IMG/VR virus record: IMGVR_UViG_3300014208_000030
Span: 104,076 to 168,075 of that record
Source of the DNA: a virus
Taxonomy: Duplodnaviria; Heunggongvirae; Uroviricota; Caudoviricetes
Direction: 5' to 3' (one strand)
DNA length: 64,000 bases
This document shows positions 2,084 to 54,580 of this stretch, piece after piece (positions within the stretch are counted from its first letter, which is position 1; each line of letters starts with the position of its first letter). The position numbers were made by a program, and so were the translations under genes. Below the pieces are notes generated by a model that was not told the DNA's origin, searched no databases, and saw only the letters and a list, made by a program, of their open reading frames with translations.

Positions 2084-2728
2084 ATGAAAACTCAAAAAGC
2101 CAAAAAAATCACTTTAGCCACTGTTAAAAGCTTTATCCGTAAAAATCAAGGTAAATTGTTTATAAAGACACAATCAAGCTTTTCAGGATATACGGATTGT
2201 GTTGAACAAATAGCGGGCGCAAAATTTGAACCCGCCGTTTTAACATCCGATAATATACAGCATACTATTGGTATTTCCGGCGCGTGGTTCGTGGGTTCGA
2301 GTCGTGATTATTTCAGACCGTTTGAAGACTCATTATATACTGGTATAGAAGTCGTTAATTCTTGCGGCTGTTTTACAATTGCCATTGAAAAGAACCAAAA
2401 AGAGAAGCCTTTTATTAGTTTCTATAGCAATGGAAATGTTATCTATTTTGGCACTAACGATAATAGAACAGGTTCGGAACCATTGACGGAACCATTCAAC
2501 ACGCATATAGAGAAAATAATAAAATCACTTGGGTTAGAAAATCCAGAGGTTGAAGTATTAAACAGACCTTTAATAGATAAAGGCTCAATTGCTGATATCT
2601 ATAACGTGAAACAATCAATTTTAGAGTTTCTCGCAGTCAATCGCATAAAAGACAAAGATAAAAAGAATATAATTGCCGATATTGAGCGCATAGTATATGC
2701 GGCGGTACAGAATGCAAAACAAAAATAA
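2084..2728 (+). CDS. hypothetical early protein (214 aa)
   Basis: ORF behind promoter cassette with conserved leader/SD. Confidence 0.55.
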   Translation: MKTQKAKKITLATVKSFIRKNQGKLFIKTQSSFSGYTDCVEQIAGAKFEPAVLTSDNIQHTIGISGAWFVGSSRDYFRPFEDSLYTGIEVVNSCGCFTIAIEKNQKEKPFISFYSNGNVIYFGTNDNRTGSEPLTEPFNTHIEKIIKSLGLENPEVEVLNRPLIDKGSIADIYNVKQSILEFLAVNRIKDKDKKNIIADIERIVYAAVQNAKQK

Positions 2729-2737
2729 AATAAAAGC

Positions 2738-2766
2738 TTGACTTTTACGGTTCTAGTTTGATATAT
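2738..2766 (+). promoter_or_regulatory. early promoter cassette (PeSL-like)
   Basis: TTGACT 2738-2743, TATATT 2761-2766; hairpin acggttctagt/tagaaccgt. Confidence 0.6.
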
Positions 2767-2816
2767 TAGAACCGTACCAAAAACCACAATCAACCACGTT
2801 AAAAGGAACCGCAAAA

Positions 2817-3011
2817 ATGAAAAACTTAAAATTGATTGAAAACTTTGTTAATGGCAATATCAGCGACGCGAAAAAAGCCGCAAAACGTGTAACCTTTGAA
2901 GCCTTAAAAGAATCATTTACAGAATATGGATTTTCAGATAATAAGGCTCAAGCATCAATGATGTTTTTGAAAAATAAAGGCTCTTTTCAGGATGCTTGCG
3001 ACGCTGAATAA
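2817..3011 (+). CDS. hypothetical early protein (64 aa)
   Basis: ORF behind promoter cassette. Confidence 0.5.
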   Translation: MKNLKLIENFVNGNISDAKKAAKRVTFEALKESFTEYGFSDNKAQASMMFLKNKGSFQDACDAE

Positions 3012-3017
3012 AAAGAC

Positions 3018-3047
3018 TTGACTTCAACGGGTTCACTTTGATATATT
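3018..3047 (+). promoter_or_regulatory. early promoter cassette (PeSL-like)
   Basis: TTGACT 3018-3023, TATATT 3042-3047, hairpin identical to copy at 391. Confidence 0.65.
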
Positions 3048-3094
3048 GAACCCGTACCAAAAAACCACAATCAACCACGTTAAAAGGAACCGTC

Positions 3095-5441: not shown

Positions 5442-5632
5442 GAATCTAACAGGCAAAAAATGCCTTACATGCCACGTATATTCTCAAGGTATATGATGGC
5501 ATGGCTTTTCTGAATACGTGGCATAGTGAGCCTTATATGATGTTACCAAATAGCATAAAAATGGATGTTATAATATAACATTGCAAAAATTCTGCTATGG
5601 TGTAAAAGTAGGGTTTCTGGCCTTTTATGAAC

Positions 5633-5672
5633 ATATGCCCGTATATGCCCGTATATGCCCGTATATGCCCGT
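5633..5672. repeat. tandem 10-bp repeat ATATGCCCGT x4, followed by atgccc/gggcat hairpin
   Basis: four perfect head-to-tail copies read directly. Confidence 0.9.
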
Positions 5673-5833
5673 AAGGGCATGCTTGCGCCCACGCACATTC
5701 CCAAGGTTTTGTCAACATTTTCCCAAAAACCCGCCAACATTTTCCCAAAATCTACCAATTTTCCACCAAAATCCACTCCAAAGAACCCTCAAAACACATT
5801 TCTAACCATTTGTCAAGGAGTTTTCCCAAAAAC

Positions 5834-5912
5834 CCACTTTTCATAAGTCTTTGATTCTGTTCAACAAAAGTAACTTTTTACCTAATAGGTTTTTTGAAAT
5901 ATTAGCTTGACA
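5834..5912. repeat. ~78-bp direct repeat copy 1 (ccacttttcataagt...cctaataggttttttga)
   Basis: near-identical second copy at 6103-6180. Confidence 0.85.
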
Positions 5913-6102
5913 AAAGCGCGGGAATATGCCTCAAAAACTACCTGTTTGCCATATGTGACACATTATTTTTGCTAAAAGCTTGACAATTGTCTCAAAATCT
6001 GCCTAAGAACCAATTTTTGCATCGCGTGTGTAGTTCTTGAGCATGTTTTTGGTTGTTTGTCAAGCATATTAGCAAGAAATATGGCCTAGGTTACCAAAAA
6101 AG

Positions 6103-6180
6103 CCACTTTTCATAAGTGATTGATTATAAACGATAAAAGTTACTTTTTACCTAATAGGTTTTTTGATATTTTGCTTGTCT
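6103..6180. repeat. ~78-bp direct repeat copy 2
   Basis: matches 5834-5912 with a few substitutions. Confidence 0.85.
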
Positions 6181-6227
6181 TATTTGTAGTTTTGTGTTAT
6201 ACTATTCTGTTAACAAATTTCTAAAAT

Positions 6228-6608
6228 ATGGGAGTATCAATGGCTAAACAAGATTATACAAAATCAAGATGTTACATAGACGGGAGAAGCAACCACAAAA
6301 ATTATGCCATATACATATCAATGATAGCAAGGTGCTACAACAAAGACTGCAAACAATACAAGAACTATGGATGGCGTGGGATAAGGATATGTGACAGCTG
6401 GTTAAATGATTTTTGGGAGTTTGTCAAGGATATGGGAGAAAAGCCATACAAAATGACCTTAGATAGAATAGATAACGATGGCAATTACTGCCCAAGCAAT
6501 TGCAAATGGAGTACACAAAAGGAGCAAGCAAACAACACGAGAACGACTAGCAAAACGAGTGCAAGAAACAGATATAGGCGGCTATTCCCGCAAGTTAAGT
6601 TCAAATGA
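6228..6608 (+). CDS. small basic protein with HNH_3-type homing-endonuclease-associated motif (LDRIDNDGNYCPSNCKWST); catalytic His pair not evident
   Basis: Motif YKNYGWRGI..C..W....F...MG.......LDRIDNDGNY.P.NC.W.T..EQ is common in free-standing phage HNH-family genes; embedded in repeat-rich non-coding DNA. Confidence 0.5.
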   Translation: MGVSMAKQDYTKSRCYIDGRSNHKNYAIYISMIARCYNKDCKQYKNYGWRGIRICDSWLNDFWEFVKDMGEKPYKMTLDRIDNDGNYCPSNCKWSTQKEQANNTRTTSKTSARNRYRRLFPQVKFK

Positions 6609-7037: not shown

Positions 7038-8849
7038 TCAGTATCCCACAGCCTCTTCAAAAGTGCAACCAAAATTATTCCATGACTGTATCTCCAATCG
7101 CATGGTATCCAGCCGCTCAAAATTTGCCATAATATATTCCATATCAGACTCAAAAAATGGTGTAATCTCACCAGTGGTTTCACAGACAGTATATGGCATG
7201 TGATTTCGCTTCTCCCAATTCTTTCCTTTCAATGTCGGGCGAAAATTTGTATAATGATTAAGTGCAAGCACTTGCTCTATAGTCGTCGCGCAAGATACCG
7301 GAAAATAATGATCATAATGCCAGTCTCCTTGATTGTGCCAACCAATACCATCAGTGAATTGACTCTCAATAAACTCATAAAATACTTCCATAGAGCAGCC
7401 CAATATGGCTTCCGTCTTTTCTGTTTTTGGGTGTCCCGTTCGTCTGATACCGGAACTTATTAGTGATCGAACTCGTGTGGTGAACATAGCAACCGGATCA
7501 GATCGTCGTCGCTGGCGCTCTCTAGCATACTTGCGTTTCCTTGCTTCTGGTGATAGGTTTTTATTATTTTCTCTGGCAGTTTCCTTAGCCTCCTGTCGCT
7601 TCTTATCGGCATGCTCGGCGAGTTCATCTGGAGTCATTCCGAGTAGTGGGTTTCTGCAAATTGGACATTTGCCTCCGGCAATATGTGATGCTGGCATCTG
7701 CTCGAACTCTCCATGTACTTTACATACGATAATGACTTTAGCTGTCGCTTTGATTACCACAGACTTCGAGTAGTCATATAACTCTCCATGTTGTGCTGTG
7801 GCTCGCTTGATGAACTCGCCTTGGCTCATCGTCCGTGATGCTAGGGCACACTTTGGGCAGTTTGATCCGGATGAGTGTGCGGAAGCGGTTTGGTTAAACT
7901 CACCGTGTATTTTGCATATGATGGTAATCTGCTGCCCAATAGCTACGTAATCTACTTTTGAGTAATCGTACCGATCGCCATGCGTCAGTTGCGATCGCCT
8001 AATAAACTCTTCACATGCTATTGTCTGTAGCGACATTGAGCAAGCCGCACAACCCTTACCTCGGATATGCGCATTTGCTCGTTGACTGAACTCACCATGA
8101 TCCGGACAAATTATTATTACGTTGGCCTGAGTGTGTTTGTAGTCTACTTTAGAATAATCATATCGGTCGCCGTGCACCTCCTTTGAGCGTGCAATGAAAT
8201 CTTCGTGTGAGAGTTTATTTGGCGGCTCGATCCCAGCGCCGATCCGGCTACCTTCCTTGGCGCACTCGCTACACCCAGCACCTTTGGTGTGGTTTGATGG
8301 TCTCTGCGAAAATACACCATGCGTTTTGCATATGATCTTCACCGGTGTATTGGCATCTACATACACAACATTAGAATAATCGTATCGATCGCCATGCTTT
8401 TTGGTCACTCTCTTAATGAATTCTTCGGTTGATATTGGCTGCACTCTCTTGCAATTTTCTCTTGCGCACTTGCTACACCCAGAACTCTTTATGTGCCCAT
8501 ACATAAGCTGCGAAAAGGCCCCATGCACTTTGCATATAATGGTTACTGGCGTTTTAGCGTCAACGTAATCAACTTGCGAGTAATCGAAGCGATCACCATG
8601 TACGGCAATGGCCTTCTGTACCATAGTTTCCGTCTTCTGCTTCGGTTGTTTCGGCGTGGGTGTCTTCTGTGGCACCTTCGGTACATATCTATAATACCCA
8701 GCAACCTTTTCGCTATTATTTGCGATCCATTCGGTACTATAGGCTTTGGCGCATGTTTTGCACTTATTAGAAATGCCACTTTTCATAGATGGCTGTTTAT
8801 AATACTCACCCAATGACTTCTCAATACCGCATGCTTTACATTTCTTCAT
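7038..8849 (-). CDS. HNH endonuclease with six tandem ~47-aa Cys/His repeat modules (start moved to MKKCKACG)
   Basis: C-terminal DWHYDHYFPVS...NHYTNFRPTLKGKNWEKRNH = HNH motif; six repeats of F..R...HGDRYDYS.V.Y......V.IICK.HG.F.Q....H..G.GC..C. Confidence 0.75.
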   Translation of the reverse strand: MKKCKACGIEKSLGEYYKQPSMKSGISNKCKTCAKAYSTEWIANNSEKVAGYYRYVPKVPQKTPTPKQPKQKTETMVQKAIAVHGDRFDYSQVDYVDAKTPVTIICKVHGAFSQLMYGHIKSSGCSKCARENCKRVQPISTEEFIKRVTKKHGDRYDYSNVVYVDANTPVKIICKTHGVFSQRPSNHTKGAGCSECAKEGSRIGAGIEPPNKLSHEDFIARSKEVHGDRYDYSKVDYKHTQANVIIICPDHGEFSQRANAHIRGKGCAACSMSLQTIACEEFIRRSQLTHGDRYDYSKVDYVAIGQQITIICKIHGEFNQTASAHSSGSNCPKCALASRTMSQGEFIKRATAQHGELYDYSKSVVIKATAKVIIVCKVHGEFEQMPASHIAGGKCPICRNPLLGMTPDELAEHADKKRQEAKETARENNKNLSPEARKRKYARERQRRRSDPVAMFTTRVRSLISSGIRRTGHPKTEKTEAILGCSMEVFYEFIESQFTDGIGWHNQGDWHYDHYFPVSCATTIEQVLALNHYTNFRPTLKGKNWEKRNHMPYTVCETTGEITPFFESDMEYIMANFERLDTMRLEIQSWNNFGCTFEEAVGY

Positions 8850-8891
8850 AATTTCTATTGTTATTTTAAAACAAGACTTCCGCCACATTTA

Positions 8892-9212
8892 CTACATTTC
8901 TTCATAACTTATTCCAAACAACCAAAATGTGAGAAACAGATGTGAGAAACAGATGTGAGAAACACGGGCAAAAATCCGGCAAAGGTTCTCACATCTGTTT
9001 CCATAACTTACTCCTCCGGTTTGACCCCCAACAAGTGCCTCGATATCCAGTTCGATAGTGGCAATGAGGGTGATGGAAAATCCTTCGGCTTGCGCAATCA
9101 GTCCATGCGATTCCATATCATGCAGCAAGTCGCCGTCGAAGGATTCGTAGAACCATTTTTTCATCGCAGCAATCGCCTGATCTTTTGTAATTAATTCAGA
9201 CCCAACGTCCAT
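8892..9212 (-). CDS. hypothetical protein (106 aa); C-terminal part reads through the 13-bp repeat array
   Basis: ORF on the gene-dense - strand; 3' end overlaps iteron-like repeats so the true extent is uncertain. Confidence 0.3.
   Translation of the reverse strand: MDVGSELITKDQAIAAMKKWFYESFDGDLLHDMESHGLIAQAEGFSITLIATIELDIEALVGGQTGGVSYGNRCENLCRIFARVSHICFSHLFLTFWLFGISYEEM
8927..9001. repeat. 13-bp motif ATGTGAGAAACAG x3 direct (8927-8965) plus inverted copy (8987-9001)
   Basis: read directly; located between the HNH gene start and the next - strand gene. Confidence 0.8.
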
Positions 9213-20704: not shown

Positions 20705-20992
20705 TTATGTGTGCATATATAATGAGTCGTAGTCGGCACTGAATACAACACCACAGCGCAGCAGATAGATAACATCATCTTCGGTAGCGACTTCGGCAAA
20801 GTCATCACAGCTGGTTGAGAGATAGATAACATCATGCTCTGCTGCAGTAACCATATCGCCTTTTTCTGGGACTATCTGGTCTAGCTTAATAAACGCACAT
20901 ATATCTGGGCGGTGATGCAGCTTGTCCTCAACTCTATCAAATTCCAGATACTCACTTTCGTGGGTCTCGAATAACGCATATACATCAATCAT
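20705..20992 (-). CDS. hypothetical acidic protein (95 aa)
   Basis: ORF, 4-nt overlap with ligase gene end. Confidence 0.45.
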   Translation of the reverse strand: MIDVYALFETHESEYLEFDRVEDKLHHRPDICAFIKLDQIVPEKGDMVTAAEHDVIYLSTSCDDFAEVATEDDVIYLLRCGVVFSADYDSLYMHT

Positions 20993-22845
20993 TTAATCAT
21001 CTCCAAATATTCATCTTCTGTTAGTACTACCACACCATGTTTTACTGCGGCATTTGTTTTTGCTGCACCTACGTTTGCGCCACAGACCAGATAGTCTGTT
21101 TTACTGCTAACTGAGCTGCCCACATTTGCGCCGAGTGCTTTTGCCTGTCTCGTCATCTCATCACGAGAGCCACGCACCATTGTGCCAGTAAAGCATATGG
21201 ATTTACCGGCTACTGACCCCGATACGACTGTTTCTGATGTGAGTGGCGTTTCCGATAGGTTGAATCCCAGTCTCATCAACCAATCAAACTCTGGCTTGAT
21301 CTTTGCGAGTGAGCTCACCAAATATTCCGCAGTTAACTCAGCGAAGCCATCGATCTTGATGATGTCTTCGACCGTCAATGCAAACACATCTGCGAGTTTG
21401 TGGTGACGTAAAAGCTTTTCGCAGCCACCCTTGCCAATGTTATTCAGAGAAAATGATGCCAAAAACCGCCAGTCTTCAATTTCTCGCAAAATGCTTTGTG
21501 ATAATTCATTAAACAGATTCTCTGACGTCTTCCCACCAAAACCTGCCTCGTCAAAATCATTTACATCCATAGCGTAAATTGATCGTACGGAGTTATATCC
21601 TGCTGAGTTTAGTTGTTCAATTACTTTTGGCCCAAACCCATCGATGTTGCCAAGTGTCTTAAAGAAGAACTCTATGGTGCGCTCTACCTGAGCTGGGCAG
21701 TCAATTGTATTGCTGCAAAAGAGATTATCACCATCTACTTCAGTAGGTGCTCCGCAGCTTGGGCATGCTTCTGGAGGATATACTGCTTCGGCTCCTTTGA
21801 CGACGCCAACAATATAGGGTATTACGAGGCCACTACGACACACTCTGACAATTGCGCCAGCGTCTATCATCTTACTCATAACGTTGCCAAAATTATGCCC
21901 AGTGGCCTTGGAAACTGTTGCACCAGAGATTTCTGTCGGCTCCAGATGCACAACTGGCGTCAGCCTACCAGTTTTTGCCGTTTGCCATATTAAGCCAAGT
22001 ACCGGTATATCAAAAAACTCCTCATTTTTCTTATAGGCAATTTGCCAGCGGTGGTGATGGTTAGTTGCGCCCATTTCTTCTTTAATTGCTGGGTGAACTG
22101 CCTCGATAACAAGACCATCTGTATCGAATTCACAATCGCGCACTACCTCATCCCACATGAGCTCAAGGTCGCGAAGAAGTTCAGTCTTCGTCTTGGTGAA
22201 ACTATGAATTTCTGAGAATGTGCAGAACACGACCGCACCATAGGCCACCGCATTCTTGATGCGCTCATCTAACTCGCCTTCTTTTATAACACCAGCAATG
22301 ATGTTTCTGGTATTTTTGTAGTATGGTGCCAACTCTTCTTCAAAATACTCTTTATTGACAACGATCTCACCGGCACCTTCTCTGCGGATAATTAAGCCGC
22401 GATGGAATGCTCTGGTAATGTCTGTGCCGCGCACACCATTGCCGCGAGTATACAGTGCCTTGCCATCATTATACGCAGCAAATCCGTCGAGCTTTGGCGT
22501 AACGCGAAAAACAACTTCGGACTCACCCATGCGCATCTGGCTGGCGACCGCTAATACATCAGTTGCCCATTTTTCTATTTCGGCAATAGAGTAGGCTTTG
22601 TCTGTAGACAACATCTTCTGTGGCAAGGTTACTGTCTTACCTTCTATTGCCTCTAAGTCAGATTCAACCTCAGACTCGGCGAAGAATTTGTTGTTGGGGA
22701 ATTGCTCTGCGTAAGTGGCTTTCATTGCATCGTATGCTGCATCAGTTACAATAGGATGCCCACCCCTATAGCGTGCATTGAGCTCTCTTGCATAAGCTTC
22801 GGCATCAGCCTCGCTAATATCCACTGCTGTGGTCATTTCAATCAT
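20989..22845 (-). CDS. ligA: NAD+-dependent DNA ligase (LigA family)
   Basis: Adenylation motif VTPKLDGFAAYNDG; C4 zinc finger CPSCGAPTEVDGDNLFCSNTIDCPAQ; C-terminal BRCT (SICFTGTMVRG...LVCGANVGAAK); 618 aa. Confidence 0.9.
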   Translation of the reverse strand: MIEMTTAVDISEADAEAYARELNARYRGGHPIVTDAAYDAMKATYAEQFPNNKFFAESEVESDLEAIEGKTVTLPQKMLSTDKAYSIAEIEKWATDVLAVASQMRMGESEVVFRVTPKLDGFAAYNDGKALYTRGNGVRGTDITRAFHRGLIIRREGAGEIVVNKEYFEEELAPYYKNTRNIIAGVIKEGELDERIKNAVAYGAVVFCTFSEIHSFTKTKTELLRDLELMWDEVVRDCEFDTDGLVIEAVHPAIKEEMGATNHHHRWQIAYKKNEEFFDIPVLGLIWQTAKTGRLTPVVHLEPTEISGATVSKATGHNFGNVMSKMIDAGAIVRVCRSGLVIPYIVGVVKGAEAVYPPEACPSCGAPTEVDGDNLFCSNTIDCPAQVERTIEFFFKTLGNIDGFGPKVIEQLNSAGYNSVRSIYAMDVNDFDEAGFGGKTSENLFNELSQSILREIEDWRFLASFSLNNIGKGGCEKLLRHHKLADVFALTVEDIIKIDGFAELTAEYLVSSLAKIKPEFDWLMRLGFNLSETPLTSETVVSGSVAGKSICFTGTMVRGSRDEMTRQAKALGANVGSSVSSKTDYLVCGANVGAAKTNAAVKHGVVVLTEDEYLEMIK

Positions 22846-27724: not shown

Positions 27725-30160
27725 CTATTTTAAATTGTAGCTTATGACTTTATAATCGAATTGATCTTTTGCATAATATCCTACTCGTTTCTCGAAATGG
27801 TCTAGGGTATGATTTTTGTAAGATTTATACGACATATCGTCCGCCAAATCGAACAGGTTACAAACATATTTCCCATTCCCCTTTCGCAGACCACGCCCAA
27901 CTGACTGCAAAACTTTTATCTTGCTCTTGTATGGTGATGCAAAAATAATATTGTCAATCCGCTTGATCGAAACACCGGTAGAAAATGTGCCATATGATGC
28001 AACTATCGTACAGTCATCTGTAGTCTCGGCAATCTGCCTAACAGCATCTCTGGACTCAACATCAACCTTGCCATGTATAAAGTGACAGTTACCAGCATCT
28101 TTTAGCAAATTGTAGATAGGCAGACCCTGCTTCCCGACGAATGTGAACAGTATTAGCGTATTACCTTTCAGAGAGTTCGCCAATCCGGCAATGAAGGCAT
28201 TTCTGCGCTCACTGGTGCATAGATAATCCATTTCTTGAGCATACGTAGCCTTGCTCCGAGCCATTGCCTTAGCAACTTCCTCGCGGTGCTTAATCAGGAT
28301 GCAGCTGATCTTCAGATTAGCGGCCTGACCGTTATCAATCAGTTCTCTGGTAGTTATAGTCTTAAATGCTTTCCCAAACAAACCCTCGATGACCAACCGG
28401 TTACATTTGCTGTCCTGCAAACTTCCGGTGAACCCGACTCGATAGGCGACATTGTGAGCCCTCTCCATAATATCGGTAATTGACTTAGATTTTGCAGTGT
28501 GGCAATTGCCTACTACAACAACAAAACCTTTTCTACGGACAATAATATTCCCAGACGGCACAGTAACGCAATGCACATTACCAGAATATTGGACGCGCTC
28601 TTTTTGCATCCCTTGCGTCCCTATGATATTGGTCTTCCGGATATATAATCTATGCACATCGGAAAACTTATCGCTCCTGCTATCTATCTGAATAGTTTTT
28701 CTTGCTATATATCCCGCTAGTACAGCAACGGTCTGATAAAAATCAACCGAGCACTCGGATGTGTTCGAATAGTAGTATCGATTCTCGCTGGATATGCTGC
28801 CATCCCAAATAACCATATACTCTATGATTTCTTTCGCCGTTTCGCTAGATAGTGTTGATACGTCAAAAAATGTAGATACATCCTTTGTCGCATAATCAAT
28901 ATTATATATACTAAACCGACGTTTTTCTTTGGTTTTCCCGTATGCTGGTATACTCTTCAGCTCATTATATGAAAACCCACCCTCAGCCATCAGTGCTAGG
29001 AACTCAGTTATTTTTCTTTCTTTAGAAAACTTAAACTGTAATACTTGTTTTCCGCCATCCCGACCAACAATACATCCGTCTGCTTGGAGTGCAATCATAA
29101 GCTTTTGTTTTGGTGTAAGTGGTCCAGAATCGCCTACGGCAAGCCCAGCCCCATATAGATTACATAAGGCATTAAAATTAACTTCTGCCGCAGTTACTTT
29201 TTTGTCAACATAGCCGTGCTTCTGTGTTCGCCTAATTAGCATATCATGGTTTGGAGTTACTAAAAGGTCTATTCTACTATCACTACTTATATGTACTAGC
29301 TCACCATCATAGTGCTTAGTGATATATCTAAGTGGCTTAACGAATGATATATTACCACAATCGTACTGAGCAACATCCGCAACCTCGCTCAATTCATCGA
29401 ATCGAACAAATCCTCTGTTTGTCAATATTTCTGTATCTGGAGAGAAGCACTCATCCTGAACAATCATATCGAACTGCTCATAATATGAGATTGGCATTTT
29501 TGCCATCGATTGGTAGGTAGTGAAGGTCAGTTGCTTATCGGTCTGCTTCTCCTGCCCAGAGTAGATCATGTGGCTTCTACCCTCAACATCCCATCCGCTT
29601 ACGCTAGAATAGTCAATGAAATCGGACTTCATTTGCGCCACCAGACCGACGGTTGGGAATATCAATAATACACGCTTCACTTCACCGATAGCTATCAGAT
29701 ATCTGATTGTGCTAAAGATAATCAGAGATTTCCCCGACGAAGTGGGGCTCTCGATGGTCGCCCTACGGTTGTCTAGAATATGTTTTATGGCGTCGACTTG
29801 GTAGTCATATACTGTGATAGGGTTTCCGGCAGAGTGCAACCGAAGAACATCGGCAATGTATTTTTCGATGATGGCTCTATCGTTGTCCACGACAGGATGT
29901 ACATCCTCATCATACTCTACTGTATAGCCAGCCTGCGCAGCGAATTCGAGAATGTGATAGAACAGGCCAGCATAAATGTTGCGAGTACCGGCGTTGAGGA
30001 GCCTGATTGTGCCATTCCACAACCCATGCTTATATGCCGGTGTAAACTTTGCACCTTCAACATCAAACGTGAAATGCGCAGCCATTTCGACAATAACACA
30101 TTTCTCGGCATCAATGTGCACATATACTTCGTTAAGTTTTCGAATTCGGATATCAGCCAT
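27725..30160 (-). CDS. uvsW: UvsW-like DExH (SF2) DNA helicase interrupted by an in-frame intein
   Basis: Walker A SPTSSGKS; extein blocks recalled to match T4 UvsW (KCNRLVIEGLFGKAFKTITTRELIDNGQAANLKI, TIVASYGTFSTGVSIKRI, VLQSVGRGLRK); motif II reads IVQDE|C...N|CHTAKS. Confidence 0.9.
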   Translation of the reverse strand: MADIRIRKLNEVYVHIDAEKCVIVEMAAHFTFDVEGAKFTPAYKHGLWNGTIRLLNAGTRNIYAGLFYHILEFAAQAGYTVEYDEDVHPVVDNDRAIIEKYIADVLRLHSAGNPITVYDYQVDAIKHILDNRRATIESPTSSGKSLIIFSTIRYLIAIGEVKRVLLIFPTVGLVAQMKSDFIDYSSVSGWDVEGRSHMIYSGQEKQTDKQLTFTTYQSMAKMPISYYEQFDMIVQDECFSPDTEILTNRGFVRFDELSEVADVAQYDCGNISFVKPLRYITKHYDGELVHISSDSRIDLLVTPNHDMLIRRTQKHGYVDKKVTAAEVNFNALCNLYGAGLAVGDSGPLTPKQKLMIALQADGCIVGRDGGKQVLQFKFSKERKITEFLALMAEGGFSYNELKSIPAYGKTKEKRRFSIYNIDYATKDVSTFFDVSTLSSETAKEIIEYMVIWDGSISSENRYYYSNTSECSVDFYQTVAVLAGYIARKTIQIDSRSDKFSDVHRLYIRKTNIIGTQGMQKERVQYSGNVHCVTVPSGNIIVRRKGFVVVVGNCHTAKSKSITDIMERAHNVAYRVGFTGSLQDSKCNRLVIEGLFGKAFKTITTRELIDNGQAANLKISCILIKHREEVAKAMARSKATYAQEMDYLCTSERRNAFIAGLANSLKGNTLILFTFVGKQGLPIYNLLKDAGNCHFIHGKVDVESRDAVRQIAETTDDCTIVASYGTFSTGVSIKRIDNIIFASPYKSKIKVLQSVGRGLRKGNGKYVCNLFDLADDMSYKSYKNHTLDHFEKRVGYYAKDQFDYKVISYNLK
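28505..29449 (-). mobile_element. intein (~315 aa) with LAGLIDADG-like homing endonuclease domain, inserted in helicase motif II (DE^CH)
   Basis: starts CFSPDTEILTNRGFV, ends ...GFVVVVGN followed by extein Cys; internal LYGAGLAVGDSG LAGLIDADG-like motif; extein junction rebuilds DECH. Confidence 0.8.
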
Positions 30161-46223: not shown

Positions 46224-46580
46224 ATGGAAACCACACAAGAAAAAACATTTGAGATACTGGATGTTGGTAATTCTCAGCACAGGCTTACTATTACGCCAAG
46301 CAGAATTACTATTAAATTCAAAAAAGATACACTGCGCGAAGAACGAGACGAAGTCATCAGTTTCTTTATCGCAGTCTCACAGGATGAAGATATGCAAAAC
46401 TGTGAGTGCTCATTCCGAGGTTCGGCGACAGTAACCGGTACCGGTAAGCTGCATATTATTATGCACGATGGTAGTCATGGTCGCAGTACGATGAACTATC
46501 ACTATTACTATGATAATGTTAATAAAAAATTAGACGATAGTCTGTTATTTAAAAATAAGAAAGCGAGGATTGCAGCATGA
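46224..46580 (+). CDS. hypothetical protein (118 aa)
   Basis: ORF, 4-nt overlap with next gene. Confidence 0.45.
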   Translation: METTQEKTFEILDVGNSQHRLTITPSRITIKFKKDTLREERDEVISFFIAVSQDEDMQNCECSFRGSATVTGTGKLHIIMHDGSHGRSTMNYHYYYDNVNKKLDDSLLFKNKKARIAA

Positions 46581-47848
46581 TTACAATTAATTACCCTACC
46601 AACAGTGACTTAGGCACCGATGAAGTAGTAACATTCCACACATTTTCTGGTGGCGAAGAGCACGTTAACTTGAAGCGCAGAGAGTTCGACACAGAACCAA
46701 CTATCATCATTATTGCTCAGATACTAAATTCTGCAGATGTAATGCGCCTCCTACTAACAACAGATGCGCTACGTCGCCTATACACCAACGATATTGCTCT
46801 GGTTATGCCATATCTGCCATATGCCCGTCAGGATAGAGCCTGTGTTGAAGGAGATGCGTTCAGTTTGCAAGTATTTGCTAAACTGATTAATGCACAAGAT
46901 TATGATCAGGTGACCGTAGTAGATGCTCATAGTAGTGTTGCTGGCGATCTGTTCCGCAACTTCAATAGTATCCCGCAGGCGTCAGTGCTAGCAAATGTGC
47001 GTATTGGAATTGATGAGCGCATTGCCTTTATTGTTGCGCCCGATGCTGGTGCTGCCAAAAAGGCGGTTGATTGGCAGACACAGTGGAACAATATCCCATC
47101 AAATTATGCACCAACATTCTTCCTACAAGCAACCAAGAAACGGGACGAAACTGGAAACATAGTGGCGACAGAACTTAATGGTGTTAGCGAAGGCGCACTG
47201 AATGGTGCAACATGCCTGATTGTCGATGACATAATTGACGGCGGTCGCACCTACATTGAGCTGGCTAAAGTTTTGAAATGGGCGGGTGCCGGTAATATCT
47301 ACCTATATGCAACGCATGGCATTTTTAGCCGAGGCATCCAAGTACTCCTAGATGCCGGTATTACGAAAGTATTCACTACCGACTCATTCCCAGAAAAGGA
47401 TGATGGGCGAGTTATTGTTAAACGATTTTCAACTGAGAGAAGTAACTATATTATGCAATCAACAAAGAAAAAAGTATTTCTGGGTGGTACCTGTAATGGC
47501 AGCACATGGCGAGATACACTGATCCCACTACTCAATATCGATTTCTTCAATCCGGTCGTTGCCGATTGGACAGAGGCAGCTTACGAAGAAGAGCTCAAAC
47601 AAAGGGAAGAGTGTGACTTCTGTCTATATGTAATCACGGCAGAATCGAGCAGCATATATTCCATTGCCGAAGTAGTTGATGGCAGCAATAAACGCCCAAC
47701 AAAGACGGTATTCTGCTTTCTTGAAGATATGTATACCGACCACGAAGTTAGCGCACTTGGTAGAGTTGCTAAGATGGTAGCAGAAAATGGCGGACAGTCT
47801 TTCAATACATTAGGTAGTGTCGCAAGATACTTAAACGGAGCAGCGTAA
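46577..47848 (+). CDS. ribose-phosphate pyrophosphokinase (Prs)-like protein with extra C-terminal Rossmann-like domain; candidate ADPR-pyrophosphate synthetase (Adps)
   Basis: Prs motifs LVMPYLPYARQDR and CLIVDDIIDGGRT; 423 aa, C-terminal ~120 aa (VFLGGTCNGSTW...) unlike canonical Prs. Confidence 0.7.
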   Translation: MITINYPTNSDLGTDEVVTFHTFSGGEEHVNLKRREFDTEPTIIIIAQILNSADVMRLLLTTDALRRLYTNDIALVMPYLPYARQDRACVEGDAFSLQVFAKLINAQDYDQVTVVDAHSSVAGDLFRNFNSIPQASVLANVRIGIDERIAFIVAPDAGAAKKAVDWQTQWNNIPSNYAPTFFLQATKKRDETGNIVATELNGVSEGALNGATCLIVDDIIDGGRTYIELAKVLKWAGAGNIYLYATHGIFSRGIQVLLDAGITKVFTTDSFPEKDDGRVIVKRFSTERSNYIMQSTKKKVFLGGTCNGSTWRDTLIPLLNIDFFNPVVADWTEAAYEEELKQREECDFCLYVITAESSSIYSIAEVVDGSNKRPTKTVFCFLEDMYTDHEVSALGRVAKMVAENGGQSFNTLGSVARYLNGAA

Positions 47849-47850
47849 TC

Positions 47851-51027: not shown

Positions 51028-51101
51028 AAGTCATTAGCTCAACGATAGAGCGGCTAGGTGCACTAGTAGATGGTGGGTTTAACTCCCATCATGGCTTGCC
51101 A
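51028..51101 (+). tRNA. tRNA-like element (anticodon arm unresolved)
   Basis: acceptor aagtcat/atggctt + g + CCA, D-arm gctc-aacgata-gagc, T-arm-like gtggg-tttaact-cccat; central region ctaggtgcactag is palindromic and gives no canonical 7-nt loop. Confidence 0.35.
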
Positions 51102-52735: not shown

Positions 52736-53042
52736 TTAACACCAGCCATTACTCTTGGGCGTTATAATTAAGAGAGGTCTTAAGCTCATACCAGAATGAG
52801 AATTGGTACATATCGCATACCAGACAAACATCCGTGTAGAGGAGAGGTTACAAAATCGATATCGTGCCTGTATGTGTACGTAAACATCCCACTGGCTAGC
52901 AAATAGGGCTCTTGGGTGAAGCATACTAGACGGAGAATAAACAGCCTAGATGGGGGAGCGTTGGTGACGTTTAGCCCATCACTCTTATTTTAAAATAAGA
53001 GATAAATATAGCAAAATGAGTGAAGTATTTTCTCCAGCTAAG

Positions 53043-53114
53043 GCACAAGGTGTGCCGCCATCCTGTTAAGATGTGTGAGTTTGGTCCGATTCCAAAAGCT
53101 GGAGAAAATACTTT
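53043..53114 (+). tRNA. tRNA-Asn-like (anticodon GTT) embedded in a 16-bp extended inverted repeat; no CCA
   Basis: acceptor tccagct/agctgga, D-arm ggca-caaggtg-tgcc, anticodon loop cuGUUaa, T-arm tttgg-tccgatt-ccaaa; flanks gaagtattttctccagc / gctggagaaaatactt extend pairing. Confidence 0.5.
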
Positions 53115-53126
53115 ATATACAAAGAG

Positions 53127-54002
53127 TTACGGGTTAATATAATTCTCAACGAGTTTCACTAATTCTGAGTACTCGATACTAGATATTGTTTTCTTTTTAT
53201 TATTTTCTGTGTGCTGCATCAATTCACAATTTAGTGGGTGTGTGATATAAAATGCATCATAGTTATATTTTAGTGCATCATGCACGGATACTCTATGGTC
53301 TCTCGATATCCCATCTGGGTTCCACTTTTGGCCTTTGAAATTATTCGGCGAGAACCACCCGAATTTATCTATTAAGGTCAGATCGAACAGGTCTGGATAG
53401 TGGTACACATTGAATGTAAACTTATATCGTTGCTTTTCTGCTGGTGAATATATGGTAACGCACTTTGTACAGTATTTCGTCGCCCTCCTTTGGGATATGA
53501 TAATGCCACAGTGCTGACATTTGCACATATATAACTTAGAAAATACACCAGATGCGGTTTTGTTAGTTTCTCGGTTTCGTACTGGACTGCGGCGTTGCGC
53601 TACTCGCTTACGTACAGGCTTTGGTAATTTAGCTTTGCGTTCTGGCTTGCTCTTGATTTTGTGTGCAGATTTATGATAGGCCGATACGCTTTTAGATACT
53701 TTATCCTTGTGGGCATCAGTAATAACATAGCCATGTTTTATTCTGTCGGTATTATTAAATGTAGCTGCACATGATGCATTACAAAATTTTCGATTAGAAT
53801 CTAATGGCATATTACAATGAATGCAGTATTTAATATTAGATTGAAATCTAGGAAGCCGATCGACCGATATCTCTTTCTTAGTAATAATACAGCAGCATCT
53901 TAGTTGTGGAAGTTTACCAGCTGATATGCCGTGAATACGAGAATGCCCATTAAGAGAGCGAATTGATGGAAATATTTTACTACAGTGTTCGCATTTGAAC
54001 AT
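53127..54002 (-). CDS. HNH endonuclease with N-terminal C2H2 zinc finger (homing-endonuclease-like) in the tRNA region
   Basis: FKCEHCSKIFPSIRSLNGHSRIH = C2H2; C-terminal GISRDHRVSVHDA...HPLNCELMQHTENNKK = HNH; basic KxK-rich linker. Confidence 0.7.
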   Translation of the reverse strand: MFKCEHCSKIFPSIRSLNGHSRIHGISAGKLPQLRCCCIITKKEISVDRLPRFQSNIKYCIHCNMPLDSNRKFCNASCAATFNNTDRIKHGYVITDAHKDKVSKSVSAYHKSAHKIKSKPERKAKLPKPVRKRVAQRRSPVRNRETNKTASGVFSKLYMCKCQHCGIIISQRRATKYCTKCVTIYSPAEKQRYKFTFNVYHYPDLFDLTLIDKFGWFSPNNFKGQKWNPDGISRDHRVSVHDALKYNYDAFYITHPLNCELMQHTENNKKKTISSIEYSELVKLVENYINP

Positions 54003-54137: not shown

Positions 54138-54203
54138 CTTAAAAGTTAACAATATACCGGACAAGCATGCGAAAGCTGCTCAAATCGTTCCGGTTTTTAT
54201 TAT

Positions 54204-54284
54204 TGTCATGTAGCTCAGTGGTAGAGCAGTGGCGTAGTCGCACTACGCTTCCGTACGGTGGGTCAACACCACCCATGACAGCCC
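54204..54284 (+). tRNA. tRNA-like element (perfect acceptor stem tgtcatg/catgaca, canonical D-arm), anticodon arm atypical
   Basis: D-arm gctc-agtggta-gagc; T-arm ggtgg-gtcaaca-ccacc; 29 nt between D- and T-arms form gcgtag-tcgca-ctacgc hairpin; anticodon not assignable by hand. Confidence 0.4.
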
Positions 54285-54300
54285 AATTTAGCGAAATAAC

Positions 54301-54431: not shown

Positions 54432-54506
54432 TCTTGGAATTGCTGGTGAAGCATAAGTGGCGATGCACATGACTTGTAATCATGAGAACGCGGGTCGGAA
54501 CCGCGC
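54432..54506 (+). tRNA. tRNA-Thr (anticodon TGT)
   Basis: acceptor gctggtg/caccagc, D-arm gcat-aagtggcg-atgc, anticodon stem catga/tcatg loop cuUGUaa, T-arm cgcgg-gtcggaa-ccgcg, CCA. Confidence 0.8.
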
Positions 54507-54580
54507 ACCAGCTCCAACCTTTAAATGTGTCTTAAATCATGTTTTAAATCAAACTTAAATCAAAACGGAATCAAAATTAT
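54507..54580 (+). promoter_or_regulatory. AU-rich repetitive leader of gene 32 (UUAAAUC(A) x4): candidate gp32 translational autoregulation site
   Basis: ctttaaatg / cttaaatca / tttaaatca / cttaaatca repeats between tRNA-Thr and ATG 54581. Confidence 0.45.

What the first reader, a model, noticed from the sequence alone, without database searches (positions are those of the whole stretch)
7038..8849. Three HNH-family endonuclease genes, one with six tandem Cys/His DNA-binding repeats and one fused to a C2H2 zinc finger
7038-8849 encodes six copies of a ~47-aa HGDRYDYS...CxxHGxFxQ...GxGCxxC module before an HNH domain. 53127-54002 joins a eukaryote-style C2H2 finger (FKCEHCSKIF...HSRIH) to HNH and sits inside the tRNA cluster, a classic homing-endonuclease niche (T4 segB occupies the same niche). 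6228-6608 is a minimal HNH_3-motif protein. The repeat-array architecture suggests modular, programmable DNA recognition.
Basis: partly seen in the sequence, partly recalled or inferred. Interest (0 to 1): 0.55.

Follow-up and report, generated by a model that had tools for sequence, protein, structure and literature searches.

The report
Three phage homing-endonuclease-type nuclease genes
Three selfish-looking nuclease genes sit in a T4-like phage genome: one joins a five-unit zinc-finger array to an HNH cutting domain, and another belongs to an unnamed family that nearly always lies flush against tRNA genes; both are new variants of known kinds, not a new principle.

Summary
Gene 7038-8888 (minus strand, 616 aa; 603 aa from 8849) has five HGDxYDYS...CxxH...CxxC modules, not six. 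Their period is 64-74 aa, and they are preceded by a CxxC..CxxC ribbon. The modules are Pfam DUF723/DUF4379 treble-clef zinc fingers. Such arrays were already described as "beads-on-a-string" DNA-binding arrays of phage T5orf172 homing endonucleases (PMC10448857).

No HNH model in Pfam or NCBIfam matches the C-terminus. It does belong to a family of over 23,000 representatives with an invariant WHxDH...N...N..K motif, and its structure model matches HNH domains. The array appears to be inserted into an ordinary ribbon+HNH protein. I did not find that combination in 270 relatives.

Gene 53127-54002 has a classical C2H2 finger, two more zinc modules and an HNH-like end. In 47 of 66 loci, members of its family end within -100..+40 nt of a tRNA gene. 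Related jumbo phages show the slot filled, filled by a different HNH gene, or empty.

Gene 6228-6608 is an HNH_3-like core with Arg in place of the catalytic His.

All three are best read as free-standing homing-endonuclease genes. Nuclease activity and homing are untested.

The parts
7038..8888 (-). P1: ribbon + five DUF723-type zinc modules + HNH nuclease gene. It is 616 aa from the first ATG. The alternative start at 8849 (Met14, MKKCKACG) gives 603 aa.
   Evidence: ORF. The exact protein is present in public assemblies on 168-kb contigs. Domain evidence is given in the rows below.
8751..8840 (-). P1 N-terminal CxxC-x22-CxxC zinc ribbon (aa 17-46).
   Evidence: It matches the N-terminal part of the HNH-family profile (A1 HMM against aa 1-84, E 7.5e-12) and PHROG endonuclease VII / Lar-like N-termini. 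Relatives carry 1-6 such ribbons.
7647..8636 (-). P1 array of five DUF723/DUF4379 treble-clef zinc modules. Window coordinates are 8457-8636, 8253-8432, 8031-8210, 7839-8018 and 7647-7826. Each unit has the invariant pattern HG-x3-DYS...I-x-C-x2-HG-x-F-x-Q-x4-H-x5-C-x2-C.
   Evidence: Pfam DUF723 scores 31.8 bits against a cutoff of 20.9. The consensus of 1036 units from 120 proteins is.
7404..7646 (-). P1 basic helical linker (aa 415-495). It is shared with the HNH family.
   Evidence: Alignment A1. The AF2 model shows helices at fragment residues 8-43.
7194..7403 (-). P1 HNH (beta-beta-alpha-metal) core, aa 496-565. Key residues are W523, H524, D526, H527, P530, H545, N548, P551, N557 and K560.
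7041..7193 (-). P1 C-terminal extension (aa 566-616). It is shared only with the closest HNH relatives, such as P0121 and P0123.
8903..9014 (-). Hairpin block just upstream of P1. A 16-nt perfect inverted repeat has its 3' arm tripled as 13-nt tandem copies. The block is bracketed by the 13-nt direct repeat GGA(G/A)TAAGTTATG. It may be a remodelled gene junction or a regulatory element.
   Evidence: RNA fold -34 kcal/mol, z -4.0. It is absent elsewhere in the window and in IMG/VR. Its function is unknown.
53127..54002 (-). P2: gene of 291 aa encoding a C2H2 finger, two further zinc modules and an HNH-like nuclease. It is antisense to the surrounding tRNA genes.
   Evidence: ORF. There are 122 homologues, most of them full-length. 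The AF2 model has pLDDT 90.6.
53931..53999 (-). P2 classical C2H2 finger (aa 2-24; C4, C7, F11, L17, H20, H24).
   Evidence: Conserved in A2. The family profile hits classical fingers in the PDB. The AF2 model shows a beta-beta-alpha unit. Foldseek matches BCL11A, Zif268 and CTCF fingers (E 0.012, prob 0.94). The Pfam C2H2 models score below their cutoffs.
53448..53831 (-). P2 second zinc module (C60, C63, C74, C78), a disordered basic linker, and a third zinc module (C162, C165, C178, C181).
53130..53435 (-). P2 HNH-like C-terminal domain (aa 190-291). Key residues are R234, D235, H236...H255, P256, L257, N258...N267, N268 and K270.
53032..53105 (+). tRNA-Asn(GUU)-like gene whose 3' end faces the 3' end of P2, 21 nt away.
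   Evidence: ARAGORN. Rfam does not recognise it. In eight P2-linked copies the anticodon loop CTGTTAA is invariant, and all 9 predicted pairs of the anticodon and T stems show compensatory changes.
6228..6608 (+). P3: bare HNH_3-like core protein of 126 aa, with motif [27 protein letters not shown] at 6456-6536. It is convergent with P1.
   Evidence: PHROG HNH families, E 7e-39. There are 134 homologues. D79, Y87, N91, W94 and Q100 are invariant and R80 is nearly invariant. No Pfam HNH hit occurs in P3 or in 40 relatives, whose partner domains are HTH, NUMOD-like and AP2.

Best explanation
The three genes are free-standing homing-endonuclease-type genes, that is, selfish site-specific DNases, carried by an uncultured T4-like myovirus.

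P1
- It is an ordinary phage 'zinc-ribbon + HNH' nuclease. A five-unit array of DUF723-type treble-clef zinc modules sits in the linker between ribbon and nuclease.
- Proposed mechanism (inferred): the ribbon and the five diverged modules each contact a few base pairs. Together they read a long asymmetric site.
- The tethered HNH domain (D526/H527 as general base, N548 structural, N557 metal ligand) then nicks or cuts nearby. Repair from a co-infecting genome that carries the gene copies the gene and its flanks.

P2
- It works the same way, with a C2H2 finger plus two further zinc modules as the reading head.
- Its family specialises in sites at the ends of tRNA genes in phage tRNA arrays.

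P3
- It is a minimal core of a widespread Arg-for-His HNH_3-like family and has no DNA-binding partner domain.
- It is probably inactive on its own, or a remnant.

What is shown: domain identities, conservation of active-site residues, the family-wide link to tRNA genes, and presence/absence at one syntenic site. What is inferred: DNA binding by the modules, cleavage, and homing.
For: P1 repeats
- Pfam DUF723 scores above its cutoff, and DUF4379 ('probable treble clef zinc finger') scores just below.
- Five HMM-defined units are present.
- More than 7,388 array proteins exist.
- In the 120 best of these, arrays of 5-14 units are fused to three different nuclease types: 43 DUF559-like PD-(D/E)xK, 28 Vsr-like and 26 GIY-YIG/T5orf172-like. 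This is the signature of a portable targeting module.
- The literature reports that T5orf172 homing endonucleases carry repeated CapR/DUF723/DUF4379 zinc fingers (PMC10448857).
- The related CapR domain binds a specific DNA site in EMSA, and Cys-to-Ser mutants lose that binding (PMC8096241).

P1 nuclease
- The C-terminal domain belongs to a family of 23,645 representatives.
- The invariant residues W, D-H, P, N, P, N, K are all kept in P1.
- Both the N-terminal ribbon and the C-terminal domain match the same family profile, E 7.5e-12 and 7.7e-62. PHROG_1035 also matches both. The array is therefore an insertion.

P2
- The family conserves a C2H2 finger and D-H...H..N...N..K.
- 64 of 66 distinct loci have tRNA genes within 3-4 kb. 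In 47 of 66 a tRNA gene starts within -100..+40 nt of the stop codon, against 16.5% for random positions in the same loci.
- Rfam confirms 11 of 20 checked neighbouring tRNAs.
- At one syntenic slot beside tRNA-Met, Cronobacter phage GAP32 has a P2-family gene, Pectobacterium phage CBB has an unrelated HNH_3 gene, and Serratia phage BF has an empty 183-nt spacer.
- Precedent: T4 SegB, a GIY-YIG enzyme in the tRNA cluster, recognises the tRNA T-psi-C motif and homes (PMC2330249). segB homologues are enriched near tRNA genes (PMC13096335).

P3
- PHROG HNH labels apply.
- Relatives pair this core with HTH, NUMOD-like and AP2 DNA-binding domains.
Against: - No nuclease or DNA-binding assay exists for any of the three proteins or for their close relatives.
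- No Pfam or NCBIfam HNH model matches any of them.
- Profile-profile comparison of the three families with one another is not significant.
- No close relative of this phage was found, so no allele lacking P1, P2 or P3 could be examined. The searches were megablast, IMG/VR and exact-protein look-up.
- P1 has the same GC and GC3 content as the genome and sits in an operon-like string of genes. It could therefore be long resident or domesticated.
- P3 lacks the catalytic His family-wide.
- DUF723 itself has never been shown to bind DNA; only the related CapR domain has.
- The tRNA-Asn beside P2 in this window fails Rfam.
Confidence: 0.6

Rival explanations
1. P1 is a domesticated DNA-binding or exclusion factor, not a mobile element. 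In this reading the array targets a sequence in a competitor phage, a satellite or the host. The protein would act as a repressor, like CapR, or as an anti-competitor nuclease, like ICP1 Odn, with no homing.
For: - CapR and Odn are documented domestications of the same domain repertoire (PMC8096241 and PMC10448857).
- P1 has genome-typical composition.
- It is tightly linked to upstream genes, with 3 nt between the stop of one and the start of the next.
- It is present in every assembly of this phage that was found.
Against: - All HNH catalytic residues are retained, which argues against a pure repressor role.
- The architecture is that of homing endonucleases.
- P1 sits next to a second homing-endonuclease-like gene (P3) at a strand-switch point.
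- There is no evidence of a satellite or a competitor target.
Confidence: 0.2
2. The P2 family serves tRNA biology, not its own spread. It might process or protect tRNA genes or transcripts, or it might drive amplification and shuffling of tRNA arrays as an anti-defence function, as shown for SegB.
For: - The ORF end lies flush against or overlaps a tRNA gene in 47 of 66 loci.
- Subfamilies track particular isoacceptors: Asn, Met, Cys, His and Gly.
- SegB amplifies tRNA-Tyr to escape Septu (PMC13096335).
- C2H2 and treble-clef modules can bind RNA (general knowledge).
Against: - The gene is antisense to the tRNAs in 26 of 47 abutting loci and sense in 21, so there is no fixed transcriptional relation.
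- Presence, replacement and absence at one syntenic slot in GAP32, CBB and BF is typical of selfish insertion.
- An amplification role would be an addition to homing, as it is for SegB, not an alternative to it.
Confidence: 0.15
3. One or more of the three genes are decaying remnants with no activity. This applies to P3 above all. Such selfish nuclease genes degenerate after they become fixed.
For: - P3 is a bare 126-aa core. Many relatives carry an extra N-terminal Cys-rich domain and/or a C-terminal HTH.
- Arg replaces the catalytic His.
- The 5' junction of P1 is remodelled, with a duplicated start motif and a hairpin insertion.
Against: - P1 and P2 are full-length, with every family-invariant residue intact.
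- In P3's family the Arg and a Gln are themselves conserved family-wide. This implies selection on a variant site, not decay.
Confidence: 0.25

Closest known systems
T5orf172 (GIY-YIG-like) homing endonucleases with repeated CapR/DUF723/DUF4379 zinc-finger arrays, from Vibrio phage ICP1, VpaJT-like phages, T5-like phages and others (Barth et al. 2023, PMC10448857)
   Same: - They use the same repeat family, Pfam DUF723/DUF4379.
- They have the same 'beads on a string' tandem arrangement fused to a nuclease domain.
- They carry the same proposed role in modular target recognition and domain shuffling.
   Different: - P1's nuclease is an HNH domain, not T5orf172.
- P1's array is internal, lying between an N-terminal ribbon and the nuclease. 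In the 120 best homologues it is N-terminal.
- None of those 120 array proteins has P1's HNH type, and none of the 150 best HNH relatives has the array.
Widespread phage 'CxxC-ribbon + HNH' proteins (PHROG_1035, labelled endonuclease VII; more than 23,000 cluster representatives)
   Same: P1's N-terminal ribbon, basic linker, HNH core and invariant WHxDH...N...N..K motif all align with this family.
   Different: - Family members are about 190-280 aa and multiply the ribbon (1-6 copies) to extend their reach.
- P1 carries five DUF723 modules for the same purpose.
T4 SegB, a GIY-YIG homing endonuclease in the tRNA cluster (PMC2330249; PMC13096335)
   Same: - Like P2, it is a free-standing nuclease gene embedded in a phage tRNA array.
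- Its family is statistically enriched next to tRNA genes.
- SegB's site includes the conserved T-psi-C motif of tRNA genes.
   Different: - P2 has an HNH-like nuclease domain and C2H2/treble-clef reading modules, with no GIY-YIG domain.
- P2-family ORFs end flush against or inside the neighbouring tRNA gene.
- P2's target is unknown.
Engineered zinc-finger nucleases (C2H2 array + FokI) and classical C2H2 arrays such as Zif268
   Same: P2 pairs a textbook C-x2-C-x3-F-x5-L-x2-H-x3-H finger with a nuclease domain. The model of its N-terminal 90 residues superposes weakly on three-finger arrays bound to DNA.
   Different: - Only one module of P2 has C2H2 ligands; the others are Cys4 or lack ligands.
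- The nuclease is HNH-like.
- The protein is natural and phage-encoded.
- There is no evidence for triplet-code recognition.
IPA-HNH and HNH_3 homing endonucleases (I-HmuI-like; PF13392)
   Same: - P3 matches PHROG families labelled HNH.
- Like IPA-HNH, P3 is invisible to the Pfam HNH_3 model.
- Its relatives pair the core with AP2, NUMOD-like and HTH domains.
   Different: - P3's family has D-R where HNH_3 has D-H.
- By my own recalled alignment to I-HmuI, which was not tested here, it has Gln where the metal-binding Asn would be.
- P3 has no DNA-binding partner domain.

Membership tests
HNH / beta-beta-alpha-metal nuclease superfamily (P1 C-terminus) | Beta-hairpin plus helix (beta-beta-alpha-Me) fold | tested here: met
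HNH / beta-beta-alpha-metal nuclease superfamily (P1 C-terminus) | Catalytic His at the end of strand 1 (D-H), Asn before strand 2, and Asn/His in the helix | tested here: met
   D526, H527, N548 and N557 are invariant in 42 family members and are present in P1.
HNH / beta-beta-alpha-metal nuclease superfamily (P1 C-terminus) | Match to a curated HNH sequence model (Pfam/NCBIfam) | tested here: not met
   P1 gives no hit even at E<=10. Only 2 of 42 relatives reach PF01844 (E 0.001) and 1 reaches HNH_4.
HNH / beta-beta-alpha-metal nuclease superfamily (P1 C-terminus) | Divalent-metal-dependent DNA cleavage | not testable with these tools
   This needs purified protein.
DUF723/DUF4379 treble-clef zinc-finger modules of homing endonucleases (P1 repeats) | Pfam DUF723 match above the gathering score | tested here: met
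   31.8 bits against a cutoff of 20.9. DUF4379 scores 23.6 against 24.5, just below its cutoff.
DUF723/DUF4379 treble-clef zinc-finger modules of homing endonucleases (P1 repeats) | C-x2-H ... C-x2-C ligand set conserved in every unit | tested here: met
   All five units keep it. It is also kept in the consensus of 1036 units.
DUF723/DUF4379 treble-clef zinc-finger modules of homing endonucleases (P1 repeats) | Sequence-specific DNA binding | not testable with these tools
   This has been shown only for the related CapR domain (PMC8096241).
Free-standing homing endonuclease gene | Site-specific nuclease domain joined to a separate DNA-binding region, encoded outside an intron or intein | tested here: met
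   P1 and P2 architectures. Rfam finds no group I intron in the window.
Free-standing homing endonuclease gene | Presence/absence polymorphism at the same site among related genomes | tested here: inconclusive
   No close relatives of this phage were found, so the test could not be made for P1, P2 or P3 themselves. The feature is met for a P2-family member in the GAP32, CBB and BF comparison.
Free-standing homing endonuclease gene | Cleavage of the allele lacking the gene, and biased inheritance in crosses | not testable with these tools
   This needs experiments.
Classical C2H2 zinc finger (P2 N-terminus) | Pattern (F/Y)-x-C-x2-C-x3-F-x5-L-x2-H-x3-H with a beta-beta-alpha fold | tested here: met
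   The sequence is FKCEHCSKIFPSIRSLNGHSRIH. C4 and C7 are invariant and H20 and H24 nearly invariant. The family profile hits PDB fingers. The model and the Foldseek matches agree.
Classical C2H2 zinc finger (P2 N-terminus) | Pfam zf-C2H2 model above the gathering score | tested here: not met
   The best score is 20.2 bits against 27 (PF13894), and 16.3 against 25.2 (PF00096). Some relatives carry a precomputed PF13912 annotation.
HNH superfamily (P2 C-terminus) | Beta-beta-alpha fold with D-H ... N ... N | tested here: inconclusive
HNH_3 (PF13392) (P3) | Match to the Pfam HNH_3 model | tested here: not met
   No HNH-type Pfam hit occurs at E<=1 in P3 or in 40 relatives.
HNH_3 (PF13392) (P3) | Catalytic His in the D-H dyad | tested here: not met
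   The motif is LDRIDN, with D79 invariant and R80 nearly invariant across 40 relatives.
SegB-like tRNA-cluster homing endonucleases (P2, functional analogy only) | GIY-YIG catalytic domain | tested here: not met
   Neither Pfam nor PHROGs gives a GIY-YIG hit. The C-terminus is HNH-like.
SegB-like tRNA-cluster homing endonucleases (P2, functional analogy only) | Gene embedded in, and statistically linked to, phage tRNA arrays | tested here: met
   Family data: 64 of 66 loci have tRNAs, and 47 of 66 abut one against a 16.5% control.

The most novel reading that the evidence does not exclude
The P2 family may be a natural class of 'zinc-finger nucleases' (C2H2 plus treble-clef modules joined to an HNH-like domain). 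Its members would home to the ends of particular tRNA genes. Subfamilies would have re-targeted to different isoacceptors (Asn, Met, Cys, His, Gly), making them drivers of tRNA-array shuffling among jumbo and T4-like phages. P1 would show the same logic from the other side: whole zinc-module arrays are swapped between unrelated nuclease chassis (PD-(D/E)xK, GIY-YIG and now HNH). The arrays would then be a portable, evolvable targeting cassette.
Probability: 0.35. Interest if true: 0.65.

Novelty: new variant of a known kind. Interest (0 to 1): 0.45.

Why it matters
Homing endonucleases shape phage genome mosaicism. They are also a source of long-site DNA-targeting tools.

P1 suggests that the DUF723 zinc-module array is a cassette that moves between unrelated nuclease chassis, which supports its role as the specificity element.

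The P2 family has been annotated only as 'hypothetical protein' in cultured jumbo phages (GAP32, Serratia BF, Erwinia phages, Lak phages). Here it gains a testable function and a defined set of candidate targets, the ends of tRNA genes.

Phage tRNA genes counter host anticodon nucleases, and SegB was recently shown to amplify them (PMC13096335). A second, HNH-type nuclease family tied to tRNA arrays bears on how phages gain, lose and amplify tRNA genes.

Tried and rejected
- Megablast of both regions against 50,697 phage records gave no match.
- The search for alleles lacking the genes failed. IMG/VR relatives of the neighbouring DHH phosphoesterase and gp32 genes are at most 50% identical. 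Exact-protein look-up returned only near-identical contigs that carry the same genes.
- Sequence searches of the PDB gave nothing useful. P1 gave only a spurious low-complexity hit. The A1 profile matched only coiled-coil noise. A3 gave nothing.
- hhalign between the three nuclease families, both full-length and trimmed, was not significant. I therefore did not claim that they are demonstrably homologous to one another.
- My first regular expression for the repeats was too strict and missed most units. I replaced it with an HMM.
I clustered the C-terminal tails locally instead.
- I considered and rejected TALE-like near-identical repeats (units are only 35-57% identical), recent DNA duplication, a foreign base composition for P1, and group I intron hosting.
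- Promoter and terminator scans near P1 and P2 were not above shuffled expectation.
- The hairpin upstream of P1 has no copy in IMG/VR.
Full report
**Setting.** The window comes from an uncultured T4-like myovirus.
- It encodes a gp32-type single-strand DNA-binding protein, whose best matches are cyanomyovirus and Xanthomonas phage proteins at about 45% identity.
- It also encodes a UvsW helicase, an NAD-dependent ligase, NAMPT and a PRPP-synthetase-like protein.
- The exact proteins occur on contigs of about 168 kb in public metagenomes.
- No phage record is similar at the DNA level.

**P1, the repeats (7038-8888, minus strand).** The ORF is real.
- It holds five HG[DE]x[FY]DYS...C-x2-HG-x-F-x-Q...H...C-x2-C units, not six. 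They start at aa 97, 165, 239, 303 and 367.
- An HMM delimits them as aa 85-144, 153-212, 227-286, 291-350 and 355-414, each with E 1e-24 to 1e-30.
- The period is 64-74 aa.
- The units are 35-57% identical in protein and there is no DNA-level tandem repeat. The array is therefore old and its units have diverged, as in zinc-finger proteins. TALE repeats, by contrast, are near-identical.
- Pfam places the units in DUF723 (above cutoff) and DUF4379, described as a 'probable treble clef zinc finger' (just below cutoff).

**What such arrays are.** More than 7,388 proteins share the array, and it occurs in 723 phage records.
- In the 120 best hits, arrays of 5-14 units begin at the N-terminus and end in a C-terminal domain of about 110-170 aa.
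- That domain falls into unrelated nuclease types: 43 DUF559-like PD-(D/E)xK, 28 Vsr-like and 26 GIY-YIG/T5orf172-like.
- An array that rides on interchangeable nucleases behaves as a targeting module.
- This conclusion is already published. Barth et al. (PMC10448857) report that 87% of T5orf172 homing endonucleases carry one or more CapR, DUF723 or DUF4379 zinc fingers. They describe these as 'beads on a string' whose combination gives specificity, and which recombine between genes.
- Direct evidence for DNA binding exists only for the related CapR domain. It binds a specific site in EMSA, and binding is lost in Cys-to-Ser mutants (PMC8096241).
- Across 1036 units the scaffold positions are nearly invariant. 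Variable positions cluster in the hairpin after DYS and in the F-x-Q-x-P-x-x-HL-x-G segment. These are candidate contact residues, by inference only.

**P1, the nuclease.** No Pfam or NCBIfam HNH model matches, even at E<=10.
- The last 177 aa nevertheless find 23,645 cluster representatives at E<=1e-3.
- Typical members are 190-280 aa, with an N-terminal CxxC..CxxC ribbon, a basic helical linker and this C-terminal domain.
- The invariant columns W, D-H, P, N, P, N, K are all present in P1: W523, D526, H527, P530, N548, P551, N557 and K560.
- AlphaFold gives a confident model (pLDDT 91.2) with a strand-helix-strand-helix core.
- I take the HNH fold and an intact active site as supported. Activity is untested.

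**P1, the architecture.**
- P1's first 84 aa and its last 202 aa both match the same family profile, with E 7.5e-12 and 7.7e-62. PHROG_1035 also matches both ends.
- P1 is therefore a standard ribbon+HNH protein with the five-unit array placed in its linker.
- None of the 150 best HNH relatives has a DUF723 unit. They multiply the ribbon to extend their reach.
- None of the other 119 best array proteins has this HNH domain.
- The combination and the internal position are therefore unusual, but they fit the domain shuffling already described for these genes.
- Caveat: PHROG_559, labelled 'HNH endonuclease', matches the repeats. Arrays joined to some other HNH type probably exist.

**P1, context.**
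- P1 is the last gene of a minus-strand string. Its ATG lies 3 nt after the preceding stop codon.
- It is convergent with P3, at the point where the plus-strand and minus-strand gene blocks meet.
- Its GC and GC3 content match the rest of the genome.
- No relative lacking the gene could be found, so homing is inferred from architecture only.

**The junction upstream of P1.**
- It contains a 16-nt perfect inverted repeat whose 3' arm is tripled as 13-nt tandem copies. The RNA fold is -34 kcal/mol, z = -4.0.
- The block is bracketed by the 13-nt direct repeat GGA(G/A)TAAGTTATG.
- The start motif ATGAAGAAATGTA (MKKC) occurs twice, 56 nt apart.
- This looks like a remodelled junction, and it makes Met14 (8849) a credible true start. 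I cannot explain it further.

**P2, the protein (53127-54002, minus strand).** There are 122 homologues, most of them full-length.
- They conserve a textbook C2H2 finger. C4 and C7 are invariant, and F11, L17, H20 and H24 are conserved in at least 90% of sequences.
- They also conserve a Cys4 module (C60, C63, C74, C78), a third zinc module (C162, C165, C178, with Cys or His at 181) and a C-terminal R-D-H...H-P-L-N-C-E...N-N-x-K block.
- One public gene call starts at a later Met and drops the finger (P0271, 227 aa).
- The family profile hits classical DNA-binding fingers in the PDB.
- The model (pLDDT 90.6) has a beta-beta-alpha finger. Its N-terminal 90 residues superpose weakly on three-finger arrays (Foldseek E 0.012, prob 0.94).

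**P2, the C-terminus.**
- The conserved spacing DH-x18-H-x2-N-x8-N-x2-K parallels P1's DH-x17-H-x2-N-x8-N-x2-K.
- The model has the same strand-helix-strand-helix order.
- hhalign against the P1 family is not significant.
- I rate 'HNH-like nuclease' as likely, not shown.

**P2, the tRNA link.**
- In the window, P2 is antisense to the tRNAs. Its stop codon lies 21 nt from the 3' end of an ARAGORN tRNA-Asn(GTT).
- Every homologue locus fetched first showed the same convergent tRNA-Asn.
- I then examined 66 distinct loci: IMG/VR hits, the earlier loci and the window. Of these, 64 have tRNA genes within 3-4 kb.
- In 47 loci a tRNA gene starts within -100..+40 nt of the ORF's stop codon, and in 33 it overlaps the ORF end. 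Random positions in the same loci give 16.5%.
- The closest relatives (at least 42% identity) sit beside tRNA-Asn in 8 of 14 loci. More distant groups sit beside tRNA-Cys (same strand), Met, Gly and His.
- Rfam confirms 11 of the 20 neighbouring tRNAs that I checked.

**The tRNA-Asn beside P2.**
- The window copy and five of its seven relatives checked fall below Rfam's threshold.
- The eight copies nevertheless share an invariant CTGTTAA anticodon loop. All nine predicted pairs of the anticodon and T stems show compensatory changes.
- It is therefore a real but atypical tRNA-like gene.

**P2 family, evidence of mobility.**
- In Cronobacter phage GAP32 the family member GAP32_407 is annotated as a hypothetical protein. 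It is the only antisense gene in its region and overlaps tRNA-Met by 23 nt.
- In the sister phage CBB, the same slot between the GAP32_408 homologue and tRNA-Met holds an unrelated, sense-strand HNH_3 gene.
- In Serratia phage BF the slot is an empty 183-nt spacer. The flank on the GAP32_408 side is conserved at 73-83% identity.
- Occupied, differently occupied and empty states of one site are the classical signature of free-standing homing endonuclease genes. Barth et al. describe the same interchangeability.

**Closest functional precedent for P2.**
- T4 SegB is a GIY-YIG enzyme in the tRNA cluster. Its 27-bp site contains the T-psi-C motif of tRNA genes, and it is inherited at nearly 100% in crosses (PMC2330249).
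- segB homologues are enriched near tRNA genes and can amplify them to escape host defence (PMC13096335).
- A search for papers holding all four terms C2H2, 'HNH endonuclease', bacteriophage and 'tRNA genes' returned none. This shows only that nothing was found.

**P3 (6228-6608, plus strand).**
- P3 matches PHROG families labelled HNH endonuclease with E as low as 7e-39.
- No Pfam HNH model matches P3 or any of 40 relatives at E<=1. An A3 profile search of the PDB also finds nothing.
- The family motif is [19 protein letters not shown]-x3-Q. D79, Y87, N91, W94 and Q100 are invariant and R80 is nearly invariant. Arg therefore stands where HNH_3 has its catalytic His.
- From my recollection of I-HmuI, which was not tested here, Q100 would replace the metal-binding Asn.
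- Relatives add an N-terminal Cys-rich domain and C-terminal HTH, NUMOD-like or AP2 domains. Those are the usual DNA-binding partners of homing endonucleases.
- P3 is the bare core. It resembles the 'too divergent for Pfam' IPA-HNH class of Barth et al., but I did not test membership.
- The conserved Arg and Gln suggest a selected variant site, not decay. Whether it cuts DNA is unknown.

**Verdict.**
- The finding is real but miscounted, and its central idea, modular recognition by the zinc-module array, is already in the literature.
- New here for P1: the array is inserted inside a ribbon+HNH chassis, a fourth nuclease type for this cassette.
- New here for P2: an unnamed C2H2 + HNH-like family lies flush against tRNA genes across dozens of phages, with presence/absence at a syntenic site.
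- Both are variants of known kinds. Nuclease activity, DNA binding, targets and homing all remain to be shown.

Noticed in passing
window 27725-30160 (-), insert at about 28502-29449: The UvsW-type helicase (811 aa) is interrupted inside motif II. The sequence ...IVQDE|CFSPDTEILT... resumes at ...VVVGN|CHTAKS. The insert is about 316 aa and looks like an intein. It matches PHROGs that carry intein-bearing RNR and ThyA proteins. Pfam sees helicase domains only on either side of it (aa 116-238 and 538-761).
   Followed up: partly
window 8903-9014 (-), just upstream of P1: A 16-nt perfect inverted repeat has its 3' arm present as three tandem 13-nt copies (RNA hairpin -34 kcal/mol, z -4.0). The block is bracketed by the 13-nt direct repeat GGA(G/A)TAAGTTATG. 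P1's start motif ATGAAGAAATGTA is duplicated 56 nt apart. It looks like a remodelled gene junction or a small inserted element. There is no other copy in the window or in IMG/VR.
   Followed up: partly
window 53032-53105, 54203-54285, 54442-54513, 51029-51097: ARAGORN and Rfam disagree. Rfam does not recognise ARAGORN's tRNA-Asn(gtt) or its 83-nt tRNA-Ala(cgc), even at E<=1. Rfam finds a good tRNA at 54442-54513 (46 bits, anticodon probably UGU) that ARAGORN missed, and a weak one at 51029-51097 (26 bits).
   Followed up: partly
L005 4876-4967, L007 4820-4901, L010 4780-4872, L015 3817-3899: Several of the tRNA-Asn(GUU) genes next to P2 homologues are 82-93 nt long and have an extra arm. That is unusual for an Asn tRNA. 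The anticodon and T arms covary cleanly across the eight copies.
   Followed up: partly
L087 (GAP32) 2207-3062; L095 (CBB) 1803-2310; L096 (Serratia BF) 1583-1840: The same slot beside tRNA-Met holds a P2-family gene in GAP32, an unrelated HNH_3 gene in CBB, and nothing in BF. The tRNA-Met genes themselves also differ strongly between the three phages.
   Followed up: yes
window 53127-54002: One public gene call for P2 (JGI, 227 aa) starts at an internal Met and omits the C2H2 finger. Homologues show that the finger belongs to the protein.
   Followed up: yes
window 5442-6227: This is a 786-bp AT-rich stretch (35% GC) with no ORF over 77 aa, lying between the plus-strand gene block and P3. Rfam finds nothing there.
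   Followed up: partly
L030 426-613: Rfam calls a group I intron (58 bits) about 2.4 kb from a P2-family gene in an IMG/VR contig.
   Followed up: no
L005 2258-3496: An IS605 OrfB/TnpB-type gene lies directly upstream of a P2 homologue, inside a tRNA array of a 305-kb contig.
   Followed up: no
window 46577-49653 and 20989-22845: The phage carries NAD-salvage genes (a PRPP-synthetase-like gene and nicotinamide phosphoribosyltransferase) together with an NAD-dependent DNA ligase.
   Followed up: no
P0269 (from; sequence): One HNH-family relative of P1 carries four copies of the G-x-FG-x-L-x-V...W-x-C-x-C-x-CG module. The same module forms the N-terminus of many P3 relatives. This is another case of reading modules shared between nuclease families.
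   Followed up: no
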